Shown: positions 12,641-44,841 of the stretch, piece by piece
Layout of the letters: each line of letters opens with the position of its first letter
Position numbering within the stretch: the stretch's first letter is position 1
From: an uncultured Planctomycetota bacterium
GTDB taxonomy: Bacteria; Planctomycetota; Planctomycetia; Isosphaerales; Isosphaeraceae
Length of the DNA stretch: 64,000 bases
NCBI GenBank assembly: GCA_963737655.1
Contig: CAVTTN010000002.1
Coordinates: forward strand, 3,136,001-3,200,000
Reading direction: 5' to 3'
Program-made: the position numbers and the translations under genes
Notes under the pieces: model-generated
Databases searched by the model: none
What the model was told of the DNA's origin: nothing
Seen by the model: the letters and a program-made list of their open reading frames with translations, nothing else

Positions 12641-13276
12641 ATGAACGGGATGGGACGGGAGCCGCTCCTGTCGCTTCGCCTGGAATCTGCCCTGCGCCGG
12701 GCGGCCTCCTGGCACGCCGCCGAAGTTCGCAAAGGGTCTCAAGTCCCTTATTTCGCCCATCCGGTCGCCGTTGCGATGATCCTCGATCGCCTGGGGTTCG
12801 ACGAGGACGTGGTGATTGCCGGGCTGCTCCACGACGTGGTGGAAGACACTGACGCGACCCCCGAGGACGTCCTCCGCGAGTTCGGCCCCCGGGTCTCGCG
12901 ACTGGTGGCCGATCTTTCCGAGCGAAAAGTGGACGATCTAGGCGCGAAACGGCCGTGGATCGACCGGAAGACCGAGCATATCGACCATCTGGCCGGCGCC
13001 TCGGTCGAATCGCGGGCGATCGCCCTGGCGGACAAGCTCCACAACCTCACGAGCATCGAGTTCGACCTGGCCGAGGGGAGGCCGGTCTGGTCGCTGTTCA
13101 ACGCCAGCCGGGAGAGCGTCCTCTGGTACTATCGGACCAGCATCGAGCGTTATTCGTTCGAGACGCCGGAACTCGCCGAGCTGGCCGGGGCGTGCCGGGC
13201 GGTCCTGGATCGCGTGACGAGGGACACGGCGGCACCGGCCGGAAAAATCGTTTCGGAGGGGGTTCCGGCCCGTTGA
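12641..13276 (+). CDS. HD-domain protein, small alarmone hydrolase (Mesh1/SpoT-hydrolase-like)
   Basis: RKGSQVPYFAHP, GLLHDVVED, ADKLHNL; no synthetase domain. Confidence 0.8.
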   Translation: MNGMGREPLLSLRLESALRRAASWHAAEVRKGSQVPYFAHPVAVAMILDRLGFDEDVVIAGLLHDVVEDTDATPEDVLREFGPRVSRLVADLSERKVDDLGAKRPWIDRKTEHIDHLAGASVESRAIALADKLHNLTSIEFDLAEGRPVWSLFNASRESVLWYYRTSIERYSFETPELAELAGACRAVLDRVTRDTAAPAGKIVSEGVPAR

Positions 13277-13300
13277 TCCCCCGGACGAAATGCGTATAGT
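13273..13300 (+). promoter_or_regulatory. Candidate sigma-70 promoter TTGATC-N16-TATAGT
   Basis: Near-consensus hexamers immediately before a multi-hairpin region that starts at about 13307. Confidence 0.45.
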
Positions 13301-13306
13301 GTCTCT

Positions 13307-13510
13307 GTCGGCTGGGATTCACCCCCCAGCCGGCTCGGGTCGCGCAGAACGTAGCGCGACGGACTAAAGCCCGCTCCTGCTCGAGGCTGGACTCCCGCCG
13401 GACCGGGGAGGCCCGTTTTGCAAAGGGGGTGATCGCGTGTGTAGTGACAACCAGAGGCGGCTCGCCTAACGGCAGCCGACGGGTTGCCCGTCGGGCAGCC
13501 GCATCTTTTC
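13307..13510 (+). ncRNA. Putative structured small RNA or leader containing a micro-ORF
   Basis: Hairpins at 13307-13334, 13339-13360, 13392-13410 and 13476-13494, ending in TCTTTT; unassigned to any family. Confidence 0.4.
13437..13469 (+). CDS. Putative 10-aa micro-ORF MCSDNQRRLA
   Basis: GTG start preceded by AAAGGGGGTGATC (13422-13434) at canonical SD spacing; TAA stop. Confidence 0.4.
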   Translation: MCSDNQRRLA

Positions 13511-13593
13511 GGCTTGTGAGATCGATCCGGCCGGGCCCGATGTTCTCGGGCCCGGTCGGGTCCCCAAGACCCTCGGGGACGGACGGAGAGACC

Positions 13594-13707
13594 ATGACCC
13601 CTCGGCCGGAAACCACGATCGCGGAGGCGTCCCTCGCCGCAGGCGGGTGGTATTGGCTGTTTACGGGGTCGGATTCCTCGGGTCCTGGGGCCGGATCGAG
13701 CGTCTAA
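13594..13707 (+). CDS. Aromatic amino acid attenuator leader peptide (37 aa, contains WYWLF)
   Basis: GGAGAG RBS, ATG at 13594, codons TGG TAT TGG CTG TTT at 13648-13662, stop at 13705-13707; upstream of a terminator and aroF. Confidence 0.75.
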   Translation: MTPRPETTIAEASLAAGGWYWLFTGSDSSGPGAGSSV

Positions 13708-13736
13708 TCGCCACGCTCTCCGAAAGCGAATCACCG

Positions 13737-13772
13737 AAGCCCCGGGACCCGAGCGGTCCCGGGGCTTTTTTT
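13737..13772 (+). terminator. Intrinsic terminator of the attenuator
   Basis: 13-bp stem AAGCCCCGGGACC / GGTCCCGGGGCTT with a 5-nt loop, followed by a T run. Confidence 0.9.
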
Positions 13773-13883
13773 GTCGGTCGAGGCGAGGTCCGGGGGTCGG
13801 GCCTCGGCGGTTTCGCAGGTTCGGCGGGGGTCGCGGCGGGCCTCCTGAGGCTCGCCGACCCTCGCCCGGGAGGACGGGGCACC

Positions 13884-14896
13884 GTGATCGTCGTGATGAA
13901 GCCGGAGGCGACGGCCGACCAGATTGACGGGGTGGCCGCGCACATCACGGCCCTCGGGATGACGCCCCAGGTCATCCGAGGGACCGAAACCACCGTGATC
14001 GCCGCCATCGGCGAGGAGCGCGAGGGGCTGGCCGAGGCGTTGGAGCCGGGCGCGGGGGTCGAAAAGGTCCTGCCGATCCGCGCCCCTACAAGAGGGCGTC
14101 CTCGGAGCTCAAGGCCGAGAGGACCGTGGTCCGCGCCGGCAGCCTGGAGATCGGCGGGAAGAAGATCGGCGTGATCGCCGGCCCCTGCTCGGTCGAGAGC
14201 GAGGCCCAGATCGTCGCCCTCGCCCGGACGCTCAAGGCCAGGGGGGCCACGGGTTTGCGAGGAGGCGCGTTCAAGCCCCGGACCAGCCCCTATAGCTTCC
14301 AGGGCCACAAGGAAGACGGCCTCAAGATGCTGGCCGCCGCCCGCGAGGCCACGGGCCTGGCGATCGTCACTGAGGTCATGGCCCCGGAACACGTCCCGAT
14401 GGTCGCCCGATACGCCGACGTCCTCCAGATCGGCGCCCGCAACATGCAGAACTATCAACTCTTGCAGGCCGTCGGCGACAGCGGCAAGCCGGCCCTCCTG
14501 AAGCGGGGGATGAGCGCCACCGTTGATGAGTTCCTGCTCGCCGCGGAGTACATTCTCGATCGAAACAACCCGAACGTGATGCTTTGCGAGCGAGGCATCC
14601 GCACGTTCGAGGACCACACCCGGTTCACCCTGCCCCTGTCGGTCGTGCCCTACCTGCACGACAAGAGCCACTTGCCTGTGGTGGTCGATCCCTCGCACGG
14701 GACGGGCAAGGCGAAGCTCGTGGCGCCGATGGCGAAGGCGGCGGTGGCGTGCGGGGCGGACGGATTGATCATCGAGGTCCACGACGACCCCGCCCACGCC
14801 ATGAGCGACGGCTCCCAGACCATCACCCCGGCCGCCTTCGCCGCGCTGATGGCCGAGTGCCGACGGGTGGCCGAGGCGGTGGATCGGAGCCTCTAG
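13884..14896 (+). CDS. aroF: DAHP synthase (type I-beta with N-terminal regulatory domain), frameshift near 14080
   Basis: MIVVMKP start, [48 protein letters not shown]. Confidence 0.9.
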
Positions 14897-43392: not shown

Positions 43393-43599
43393 ATGCTCGT
43401 CCTGACCAGGAAGATCGGGGAGAAGATCCACATCGGCGACCATGTGGTGGTCACGGTCGTGAGGATCCAGAACGACAAGGTCCGGATCGGGATCGACGCG
43501 CCGCCGGAGGTCGTCGTCCACCGCGAGGAGGTCCACGAGCGGGCCCTCCGGGCCCGGCGGCCGGGCGACCTCCCCGCGGCCTCCGCCGCCGAGGAGTGA
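43393..43599 (+). CDS. csrA: Carbon storage regulator CsrA
   Basis: MLVLTRKIGEKIHIG...KVRIGIDAP...VHREEV. Confidence 0.92.
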   Translation: MLVLTRKIGEKIHIGDHVVVTVVRIQNDKVRIGIDAPPEVVVHREEVHERALRARRPGDLPAASAAEE

Positions 43600-43803: not shown

Positions 43804-44841
43804 ATGATCATCGTCTTGAAGCCCAATCCTTCCGCCGAGCAGGTCCGCCACGTCGTCGAGCGGATCGAGGAGCTCGGGCTGGTTCCCCACCTCAGCCAGG
43901 GCGTCTCCCGGACGATCATCGGCGTGATCGGCGACGAGGAGAAGCTCCAGGCCGAGCCCCTCCAGGCGATCGAGGGCGTGGAGTCCGTCGTCCCGATCCT
44001 CAAGCCGTTCAAGCTGGCCAGCCGCGAGTTCCACCGCGAGGAATCGGTCTTCGACGTCAAGGGCGTGAAGGTCGGCGGCGGCCACCTGATGATGATCGCC
44101 GGCCCCTGCGCGATCGAGTCCGAGGAGCGCCTGGTCGAGATCGCCGAGGTCGTCAAGGACGCCGGGGCGAACGTCCTCCGGGGCGGCGCCTACAAGCCTC
44201 GGACCAGTCCCTATAGCTTCCAGGGACTCGGCGAGGACGGCCTCAAGATCCTCCGGGCCGCCGGGGAGCGGTTCGACATGCCGGTGGTCACCGAGGTCAT
44301 GGACCCCCGCCAGGTCGAGACCGTCGAGAAGTATGCCGACCTGATCCAGATCGGCGCCCGGAACATGCAGAATTTCGACCTCCTGAAGGAAGTCGGCCGG
44401 ACCCGCACCCCGGTCCTCCTCAAGCGGGGGATGAGCGCGACGGTCAAGGACCTTCTGATGAGTGCCGAGTATGTCCTGGCCCAGGGGAACATGCGGGTGA
44501 TCCTCTGCGAGAGGGGCGTCCGCTCGTTCGAGGACTCGACCCGGAACATGATGGACCTCTCGGCCGTCCCGAACGTGAAGGGTCAGAGCCACCTGCCGAT
44601 CATCGTGGACCCGAGCCACGCGACGGGCCGCCCGGACCTGATCCCGCCCATGGCCCGGGCCGGGCTGGCCGCGGGGGCCGACGGGGTCCACGTCGAGGTC
44701 CACACCTGCCCGGAGAAGGCCCTCTCCGACGGCCCCCAGGCCCTCCTGCCGGCGGCCTACGCCCGGCTGATGGACGAGCTTCGGGCCCTGGCGGAGCTCA
44801 TGGGCAAGACGATCGACGTCCGCGAAGGGGTCCCCGCCTGA
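43804..44841 (+). CDS. aroF: DAHP synthase (type I-beta), second paralog
   Basis: [39 protein letters not shown]. Confidence 0.92.

What the first reader, a model, noticed from the sequence alone, without database searches (positions are those of the whole stretch)
13594..13772. Complete leader-peptide attenuator sensing Trp, Tyr and Phe upstream of DAHP synthase
Seen: a GGAGAG RBS, a 37-codon ORF whose only aromatic codons form the cluster W-Y-W-L-F (13648-13662), and a strong terminator (13737-13772) about 110 nt before aroF. Also seen: a segment GGTCCTGGGGC (13681-13691) that can pair with the terminator's 5' arm GCCCCGGGACC (13739-13749) with one G-U pair. Established: this is the geometry of trpL/pheL-type ribosome-mediated attenuation, and DAHP synthase is the first step for all three aromatic amino acids. 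Inference: stalling at W/Y/F leaves 13681-13691 free to form the antiterminator, whereas translation to the stop at 13705 covers it and allows termination. One short leader would thus integrate all three end products. I do not know of this being described in planctomycetes, but I cannot check the literature.
Basis: partly seen in the sequence, partly recalled or inferred. Interest (0 to 1): 0.85.

Follow-up and report, generated by a model that had tools for sequence, protein, structure and literature searches.

The report
Aromatic leader attenuator behind abundant mini-mRNA
A tiny gene with a run of tryptophan, tyrosine and phenylalanine codons sits beside two competing RNA hairpins and most likely lets this planctomycete turn up the first enzyme of aromatic amino-acid synthesis when those amino acids run short; the kind of switch is textbook, but here it is predicted to lack the usual default-off hairpin and to ride on the tail of a separate, likely very abundant small RNA.

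Summary
Confirmed. The 37-codon ORF (WYWLF), a 15-bp antiterminator and a -29 kcal/mol terminator lie 111 nt before a type I-beta DAHP synthase. The same design was scored in 60 of 134 usable homologous loci, across Planctomycetota and in Geobacteraceae, Methylomirabilis, Syntrophaceae and Anaerolineaceae. Antiterminator and terminator arm co-vary, and Phe/Tyr codons are skewed to TTT/TAT. Best reading: ribosome-stalling transcription attenuation, as for Corynebacterium aroR-aroF (F-Y-F). Sensing of all three amino acids is inferred: 47 of 60 clusters hold W, Y and F, but Tyr had no effect on aroR. Two differences from trpL/pheL: no dominant protector hairpin is predicted, and in this family the leader appears to be the 3' part of an abundant rreB-like mini-mRNA whose hairpin lacks a U-tract. 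The aroF frameshift is probably a long-read error. This scan noted both elements before in other planctomycete genomes. I found no paper describing the leader in this phylum.

The parts
13273..13300 (+). sigma-70-type promoter (TTGATC-16-TATAGT), the only one found between 13200 and 14000; predicted to drive the mini-mRNA and the leader
   Evidence: 1 found, 0.1 expected in shuffles; similar -35/-10 boxes visible upstream of own-family copies
13306..13520 (+). structured rreB-like mini-mRNA, single copy per genome, found across the class
   Evidence: 43 consensus pairs, 14 with two-sided changes; one match in each of 61 of 81 class genomes; no real Rfam hit; very deep in two metatranscriptome assemblies of relatives
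13422..13434 (+). extended Shine-Dalgarno, 13 nt complementary to the 16S 3' tail with one G-U
   Evidence: 16S tail read from this genome
13437..13469 (+). mini-ORF, GTG start, 10 codons (MCSDNQRRLA)
   Evidence: frame kept by 3-nt indels and alternative stops in relatives
13524..13562 (+). strong hairpin without a U-tract, at the 3' end of the mini-mRNA; predicted read-through or processing boundary
   Evidence: -36.7 kcal/mol, 1 T in the following 8 nt; 6 or more T in 2 of 26 leader-linked copies against 17 of 26 stand-alone copies
13585..13590 (+). ribosome-binding site of the leader (GGAGAG)
13594..13707 (+). leader-peptide ORF, 37 codons
   Evidence: counterparts in 60 loci
13648..13662 (+). 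control codons W-Y-W-L-F (TGG TAT TGG CTG TTT)
   Evidence: TTT/TAT bias across leaders
13677..13691 (+). antiterminator strand, pairs with 13739-13753
   Evidence: cognate pairing beats all 10,000 permutations across 51 loci
13736..13772 (+). intrinsic terminator hairpin and U-tract
13884..14896 (+). type I-beta DAHP synthase (aroF) with N-terminal ferredoxin-like regulatory domain; RBS GGAGGA at 13869-13874; one-base frameshift near 14082-14089 in this assembly
   Evidence: NF006421 at 417 bits, cut-off 335; PF18152; frameshift

Best explanation
This is a conserved leader ORF with a W/Y/F codon cluster, an antiterminator and a terminator in front of DAHP synthase, and it most likely works as a ribosome-stalling transcription attenuator that would raise aroF transcription when charged aromatic tRNAs run short. 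Steps: (1, inferred) transcription starts at the promoter at 13273-13300, runs through the mini-mRNA and its U-less hairpin into the leader; (2, inferred) a ribosome loads at ATG 13594 and follows the polymerase; (3, predicted by folding) if it waits at W19-F23, 13677-13691 is free and captures 13739-13753 before the terminator's 3' arm is made, so the polymerase reads into aroF; (4, predicted, weaker) if it runs on through codons 28-37 it melts that strand and then sits between it and its partner, the terminator forms, and transcription ends at 13772. Trp is probably the strongest input in this family; Phe and Tyr are likely inputs but untested. Because no dominant protector hairpin is predicted, specificity would come from how long the ribosome waits on the cluster, not from where it stops, and an untranslated leader would read through.
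For: Conservation: 60 of 134 usable loci, from four lineages outside the phylum as well. Genome-wide null 1 of 47. Antiterminator duplex stronger than an upstream control in 57 of 60, shuffle p<0.05 in 36 of 60. Cognate strand:arm energy -21.9 against -17.6 +/- 0.4 in 10,000 permutations, best permutation -19.1, 51 loci; own family alone 0 of 10,000. Folding the RNA downstream of the ribosome: 5' arm captured with a stall at W in 52 of 53 loci, Y 52 of 54, F 58 of 60, at the stop 4 of 60. Phe codons TTT 137 of 177 and Tyr TAT 64 of 111, against 75 of 207 T-ending among other NNY codons of the same leaders. RNA contigs from two studies are deep on a relative's leader (1,088 and 1,409) and shallow on aroF (0-38), the reverse of a DNA run (2.6 against 2.5-114) (weak hint). 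No TrpR, T-box or TRAP found in this 87.7% complete genome. Precedent: aroR-aroF.
Against: Nothing was measured: no Ribo-seq, Term-seq or reporter. When RNA 5' of the ribosome is allowed to pair around it without a steric cost, the contrast shrinks: capture at the stop stays at or above 0.5 in 38 of 60 loci, and in the window is 0.68 (0.33-0.82 by footprint) against 0.85 at a stall, so the OFF state rests on sterics and timing that I could not model. At full length the terminator wins in nearly all states (55 and 60 of 60), as it does for trpL. 13 of 60 clusters lack W or Y inside the scored window. Tyr did not affect aroR. Only 22 of 60 leaders have an SD-like 4-mer and 47 an ATG. Loci were the best-scoring hits, and kin are not independent. 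aroF is frameshifted in this assembly.
Confidence: 0.85

Rival explanations
1. It is an attenuator, but effectively for one or two amino acids (mostly Trp in this family); the other aromatic codons are kept for RNA pairing or add little.
For: In aroR only Phe limitation acted. 5 of 14 scored own-family clusters read W+F with no Y inside the window, and 7 of 60 clusters lack W. The window has a single Y and a single F, and F23 is marginal at full length (terminator probability 0.72).
Against: 47 of 60 clusters across distant lineages keep W, Y and F together with no fixed order. Both Phe and Tyr codons carry a TTT/TAT bias beyond the leader background. The five W+F own-family leaders each have a Tyr codon further upstream in the same frame.
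Confidence: 0.35
2. The leader is a general gauge of translation speed or ribosome supply: any slowdown, or no translation at all, opens it, and the aromatic codons only bias the response.
For: No dominant protector: untranslated RNA still forms the antiterminator in 50 of 60 loci, and a stall 6 codons upstream does in 54 of 60. Window 0.85 against 0.06 (trpL) and 0.15 (pheL) by the same procedure. Weak ribosome-binding sites.
Against: The only conserved coding feature is the aromatic cluster, placed just 5' of the antiterminator. A transient cluster:antiterminator hairpin is predicted before the terminator is made in 31 of 60 loci (0.75 in the window) and could act kinetically.
Confidence: 0.15
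3. The peptide itself is the functional product, or the cluster senses a small molecule inside the ribosome (TnaC-like arrest), and the terminator is simply the end of the upstream small RNA.
For: The upstream mini-mRNA lacks its own U-tract here and needs an end. 'FT' after the Trp run recurs in the own family.
Against: Residue order and length vary freely (WYWLF, FFYSFWFSY, YYFWFSF, FYYFRYYY). No Pfam match. The antiterminator co-varies with the terminator. The same leader occurs where no mini-mRNA is adjacent.
Confidence: 0.04
4. In this particular genome aroF is a true pseudogene and the leader a relic.
For: One-base frameshift near 14082-14089, shared with one same-genus genome (L008). 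Two intact-looking paralogues exist.
Against: The change is one C short in a C run; 6 of 27 other test genes are also frame-broken in this assembly; a second same-genus genome (L005) is intact. The rest of the gene is 84-88% identical to its closest relatives.
Confidence: 0.12

Closest known systems
Corynebacterium glutamicum aroR-aroF attenuator (Mentz et al. 2013, PMC4046766, passages read; Neshat et al. 2014, not read, seen as summarised in passages of PMC11802643)
   Same: Short leader peptide with aromatic codons upstream of a DAHP synthase gene, controlling transcription by ribosome stalling.
   Different: aroR has F-Y-F, no Trp, and responded to Phe but not Tyr. Here Trp codons are prominent, the enzyme is type I-beta with a ferredoxin-like domain, and the host is a planctomycete. 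Sequence homology to aroR was not tested.
E. coli trpL and pheL attenuators (Rfam RF00513 Trp_leader, RF01859 Phe_leader)
   Same: Leader ORF with cognate codon run, antiterminator sharing the terminator's 5' arm, intrinsic terminator.
   Different: No Rfam match for the window or 10 homologous loci while the E. coli controls matched. Three amino acids in one cluster. No dominant 1:2 protector predicted. Stop codon lies after the antiterminator strand, 11-18 nt in 25 of 60 loci.
Predicted premature terminators before DAHP synthase genes (Naville and Gautheret 2010, PMC2965389, passages and supplementary Tables S0, S1, S7, S8 searched; Song et al. 2005, PMC1173090, passages incl. Table 7)
   Same: aroG is listed among frequently attenuated families with mechanism '?'. 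Table S8 lists terminators before Geobacter metallireducens Gmet_0346, Pelobacter, Dehalococcoides and Thermotoga DAHP synthases, and before a Rhodopirellula baltica gene of the same family annotated kdsA. Song et al. list one before Thermus aroA-I-beta.
   Different: Those entries give a terminator only, with sensor unassigned (one Photobacterium entry is labelled Trp_leader). No W/Y/F leader is described in what I read. Whether the R. baltica entry is this element was not checked.
rreB / rreR small mRNAs with extended Shine-Dalgarno (Hahn et al. 2016, PMC5711450, abstract and passages read) - for the upstream RNA only
   Same: Small structured RNA, long complement to the 16S 3' end, GTG start, very short ORF.
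   Different: rreB has a 17-nt SD reaching the start codon, a 14-aa ORF, and is described in Alphaproteobacteria; the paper does not mention planctomycetes. Here the match is 13 nt with one G-U, the ORF 10 codons, and the RNA abuts an amino-acid attenuator.

Membership tests
Ribosome-mediated (leader-peptide) transcription attenuator | Short upstream ORF with clustered codons for the pathway's end products | tested here: met
   null 1 of 47
Ribosome-mediated (leader-peptide) transcription attenuator | Intrinsic terminator between leader and first gene | tested here: met
Ribosome-mediated (leader-peptide) transcription attenuator | Mutually exclusive antiterminator placed just 3' of the control codons | tested here: met
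Ribosome-mediated (leader-peptide) transcription attenuator | Ribosome position switches the fold (stall = antiterminator, stop = terminator) | tested here: inconclusive
   clear when only RNA 3' of the ribosome folds; much weaker when 5' RNA may pair around it
Ribosome-mediated (leader-peptide) transcription attenuator | Leader is translated and read-through responds to amino-acid starvation | not testable with these tools
   only assembled contigs of relatives were available
trpL/pheL four-segment subtype | Dominant 1:2 protector hairpin giving termination when the leader is untranslated | tested here: not met
   equilibrium folding: window 0.85 capture without ribosome against 0.06 and 0.15 for trpL and pheL; 50 of 60 loci at or above 0.5
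Rfam Trp_leader / Phe_leader | Covariance-model score above the gathering threshold | tested here: not met
   (E. coli controls matched at 93 and 132 bits)
T-box riboswitch or TRAP-dependent attenuator | T-box model match; TRAP gene in the genome | tested here: not met
   genome 87.7% complete
rreB/rreR mini-mRNA (upstream RNA) | At least 16 nt complementarity to the 16S 3' end before a short ORF | tested here: not met
   13 nt with one G-U in the window; criterion from PMC5711450 abstract
rreB/rreR mini-mRNA (upstream RNA) | Short ORF with GTG start whose frame is conserved | tested here: met
rreB/rreR mini-mRNA (upstream RNA) | Co-sediments with 30S subunits | not testable with these tools
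   no experiment possible
6S RNA or tmRNA (upstream RNA) | Model match at this place | tested here: not met
   a 6S candidate (42.3 bits, under the 46.4 cut-off) and a tmRNA lie elsewhere in the genome; none here

The most novel reading that the evidence does not exclude
In this planctomycete family the aromatic attenuator has been captured by a ribosome-gripping mini-mRNA: one strong promoter makes one transcript, the attenuator's terminator serves as the small RNA's stop signal, and entry into aromatic biosynthesis is gated in series by ribosome supply (extended SD and 10-codon ORF) and by Trp, Tyr and Phe supply (protector-less leader that reads through when untranslated).
Probability: 0.2. 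Interest if true: 0.72.

Novelty: new variant of a known kind. Interest (0 to 1): 0.48.

Why it matters
E. coli controls this step with three isoenzymes and two repressors (recalled; TyrR and TrpR control also stated in PMC11802643). A single 15-nt codon cluster that could report all three aromatic amino acids would be a compact alternative. It would assign a sensor to a gene family that a genome-wide terminator survey listed as frequently attenuated with unknown mechanism, and give planctomycetes, for which no TrpR, T-box or TRAP was found here, a testable control point. It is also a ready part for a pan-aromatic biosensor. The mechanism class itself is textbook, which caps the surprise.

Tried and rejected
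Rfam scan of 12900-14200: five matches with E 0.74-4.7, all far below gathering score, treated as chance; the best (Caulobacter CC2171) shares the SD-like motif. No tRNA or tmRNA in the window. Upstream RNA as 6S or tmRNA: rejected. TrpR, T-box, TRAP: not found. Upstream regions of the two anthranilate-synthase-like genes, pheA and the two DAHP synthase paralogues were printed; none was among the aromatic-leader hits of the genome scan, whose strict stem rule could miss weak terminators. A conserved 1:2 protector: looked for, not supported at equilibrium. Public runs: none holds this organism (best share 0.06), so the frameshift could not be checked on its own reads; one contig of a relative has the extra C. 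Absence of laid contigs over the window's own leader is no evidence, since leaders diverge. Literature: ten searches gave no paper describing this leader in Planctomycetota; most subscription papers are not held, including comparative attenuation surveys that I recall (Vitreschak 2004, Lopatovskaya 2010), which may cover Geobacter or planctomycetes. PMC4833913 (first of three parts read) counts leader genes in planctomycetes but in that part names no aro leader; its gene tables were not seen. PMC2659441 (passages) lists a proposed Tyr attenuator before Shewanella aroF. I read 30 of 48 Rhodopirellula rows of Table S8 plus the family rows. Feedback inhibition of ferredoxin-domain DAHP synthases by Tyr/Phe is recalled; PMC8408635 gave only reference-list passages. 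Rows left out: L007 and L041 (no upstream sequence); L008 failed the automatic terminator rule but has leader and hairpin by eye and is counted as negative; L031 (near-duplicate) and 8 non-planctomycete loci were left out; L147 (no leader seen), L155 and several stand-alone copies (L165, L177, L181, L184) were not in the U-tract count, and L159, counted as linked, has a Trp-rich ORF but no clear terminator.

Full report
Observation. The ORF runs from ATG 13594 to TAA 13707, 37 codons, with W19 Y20 W21 L22 F23 as its only aromatic residues. The terminator (13736-13768, 14 pairs, -29.4 kcal/mol, T run to 13772) is the stronger of two terminator-like sites in 13200-14000. The antiterminator is longer than reported: 13677-13691 pairs with 13739-13753, taking the terminator's 5' arm and most of its loop. 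The downstream gene starts at GTG 13884 and is a type I-beta DAHP synthase (NF006421) with a ferredoxin-like N-terminal domain (PF18152); full-length solved relatives of 333-350 residues match a close homologue at E about 1e-95. The host is a planctomycete: nearest titled records are 84-85% identical Planctomycetota MAG proteins, and a paralogue is 82% identical to an Isosphaeraceae MAG protein, so that family is likely but not shown.

Chance. On the 7.6-Mb main contig a strict rule finds 88 terminators, 47 with a short upstream ORF; only this one has four W/Y/F codons in six.

Conservation. I took the best-scoring aroF loci from three searches: 136 loci, 134 with upstream sequence. One automatic rule (terminator, ORF ending before it, four or more W/Y/F in eight codons) scored 60: 14 of 17 own family, 13 of 16 other families of the class, 13 of 21 other classes of the phylum, 12 of 22 titled planctomycete records (some at 52-54% identity, probably paralogues) and 8 of 58 titled records from other phyla. 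Those eight are Oryzomonas, Geobacter, Geomonas propionica, Geoanaerobacter, Methylomirabilis, two Syntrophaceae and one Anaerolineaceae. Peptide order is free; composition is not: 47 clusters hold W, Y and F, 7 Y and F, 6 W and F. An in-frame ATG, GTG or TTG lies within 32 codons in 59 of 60, an ATG in 47, an SD-like 4-mer in 22. These loci are best hits, not a random sample, and kin are not independent.

RNA switch. The strand after the cluster pairs with the terminator's 5' arm more strongly than an upstream control in 57 of 60 loci, and beats shuffles at p<0.05 in 36. Each strand fits its own terminator better than others': mean -21.9 against -17.6 +/- 0.4 kcal/mol over 10,000 permutations of 51 planctomycete loci, none reaching the observed value; the 14 own-family loci alone give the same answer. 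Folding only the RNA 3' of the ribosome, the arm is captured with a stall at W in 52 of 53 loci, Y 52 of 54, F 58 of 60, and at the stop in 4 of 60. Against this: if RNA 5' of the ribosome may pair around it at no cost, capture at the stop remains at or above 0.5 in 38 of 60, and the window gives 0.33-0.82 depending on footprint. The stop lies 14-15 nt past the antiterminator strand in 17 of 60 loci, so a terminating ribosome would cover only its end and sit between the partners. The OFF state therefore depends on sterics and timing, which I could not compute. At full length the terminator wins almost everywhere, as it does for trpL, so the switch would be kinetic.

Difference from trpL and pheL. 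With no ribosome, the E. coli controls fetched give capture 0.06 and 0.15; the window gives 0.85 and stays there for every codon up to G25. Across loci, 50 of 60 stay at or above 0.5 untranslated; a transient cluster:antiterminator hairpin appears in 31 of 60 before the terminator is made. So super-attenuation is not predicted. Rfam Trp_leader and Phe_leader match the controls but not the window or ten homologues.

Codon choice. Phe is TTT in 137 of 177 cluster codons and Tyr is TAT in 64 of 111, against 23-24% in the aroF genes and 36% T-ending among other NNY codons in the same leaders. This fits selection on decoding, though U-rich RNA pairing could contribute.

Where the transcript comes from. 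The only promoter-like site lies at 13273-13300, 294 nt before the leader. Between them is a structured RNA (14 of 43 pairs with two-sided changes) with a 13-nt match to the 16S tail and a 10-codon ORF whose frame is conserved. A model of it finds exactly one copy in 61 of 81 class genomes, 18 of 18 in the own family. It has aroF next to it in all 15 further own-family loci printed and in none of 30 loci from other families, 20 of which had only about 0.5 kb of flank. It is not 6S or tmRNA and resembles rreB (lead from earlier findings). Its 3' hairpin is followed by six or more T in 2 of 26 leader-linked copies, 17 of 26 stand-alone copies and 4 of 4 copies that precede aroF without a leader; the linked group is almost one family, so this is one evolutionary event, not 26. 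Only 31 nt separate the hairpin from the leader ATG, and a promoter pattern was found after the RNA in 3 of 16 loci. In two soil or rhizosphere metatranscriptome assemblies of relatives, summed contig depth reaches 434,777 and 44,543 on this RNA; laid on a family member, it is 1,088 and 1,409 on the leader and 0-38 on aroF, while a DNA run gives 2.6 and 2.5-114; three RNA contigs join RNA to leader. The tool warns that contig depth cannot rank genes and that a joining contig does not show one transcript, so these are weak hints.

Frameshift. aroF changes frame near 14082-14089: one C short in a C run, the same in same-genus L008, intact in same-genus L005 and the other eight loci shown. Six of 27 other test genes also switch frame in this assembly. 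An assembly error is likely; a pseudogene is not excluded.

Known systems. C. glutamicum aroR (F-Y-F) precedes aroF; Phe but not Tyr limitation raised transcription. A terminator survey lists aroG as frequently attenuated with unknown mechanism and lists terminators, sensor unassigned, before DAHP synthases of Geobacter, Pelobacter, Dehalococcoides and Thermotoga and before a Rhodopirellula gene of that family annotated kdsA. Ten literature searches found no description of a W/Y/F leader in Planctomycetota; subscription papers are largely not held. This scan has noted the same leader in other planctomycetes, cyanobacteria and archaea; those are unchecked notes, not evidence.

Verdict. A real leader-peptide attenuator (0.85). 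All three amino acids acting as inputs: about 0.55. New variant of a known kind: three-amino-acid cluster, no dominant protector predicted, and in this family a likely shared transcript with an abundant mini-mRNA. Interest 0.48.

Noticed in passing
window 13273-13562 (+): Single-copy structured mini-mRNA with extended SD and 10-codon ORF, found across the class and very deep in two metatranscriptome assemblies; here it abuts the leader and its 3' hairpin has no U-tract.
   Followed up: yes
L016, L158, L161 (one own-family genus), mini-mRNA 138-142 nt before aroF: The aromatic leader is absent, the mini-mRNA hairpin has a U-tract, aroF starts about 45 nt later, and the mini-ORF carries a Trp codon in place of Arg (NQRWLP, DQRWSS). 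It could be a substitute Trp sensor, but L018 (has a leader) and stand-alone L165 also carry that Trp.
   Followed up: partly
L159, just upstream of aroF: Trp-rich ORF (PWSWWWDEIAWRGMRWE) ends 3 nt before the aroF start with no terminator seen: possible shift from transcriptional to translational control.
   Followed up: no
window 14082-14089: One-base frameshift in aroF, shared with L008; about a fifth of test genes in this assembly are frame-broken.
   Followed up: yes
window 43804-44814 and 43393-43599: A second I-beta DAHP synthase paralogue lies in the same window, without a detected leader, just after a 68-codon ORF that looks like CsrA (name recalled from the sequence, not searched). 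A third paralogue is at C2:7015829-7016839.
   Followed up: partly
window 12641-13276 (+): Stand-alone HD-domain protein resembling the hydrolase part of RelA/SpoT (PF13328) ends where the mini-mRNA promoter begins; whether this neighbour is conserved was not checked.
   Followed up: no
G000:C2:3414197-3414358 (L193): 6S RNA candidate, 42.3 bits, just under the Rfam cut-off.
   Followed up: no
L081, L085, L092, L125, L126: In these Geobacteraceae and Syntrophaceae leaders the scored terminator lies 60-100 nt after the leader stop and four of the five have a second terminator-like hairpin; the best-pairing strand lies far downstream, so their switch may be built differently.
   Followed up: no
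L035-L040 (family f34): Leaders dominated by Tyr and Phe, four of six without Trp in the cluster; the stop codon overlaps the antiterminator strand in most of them.
   Followed up: partly
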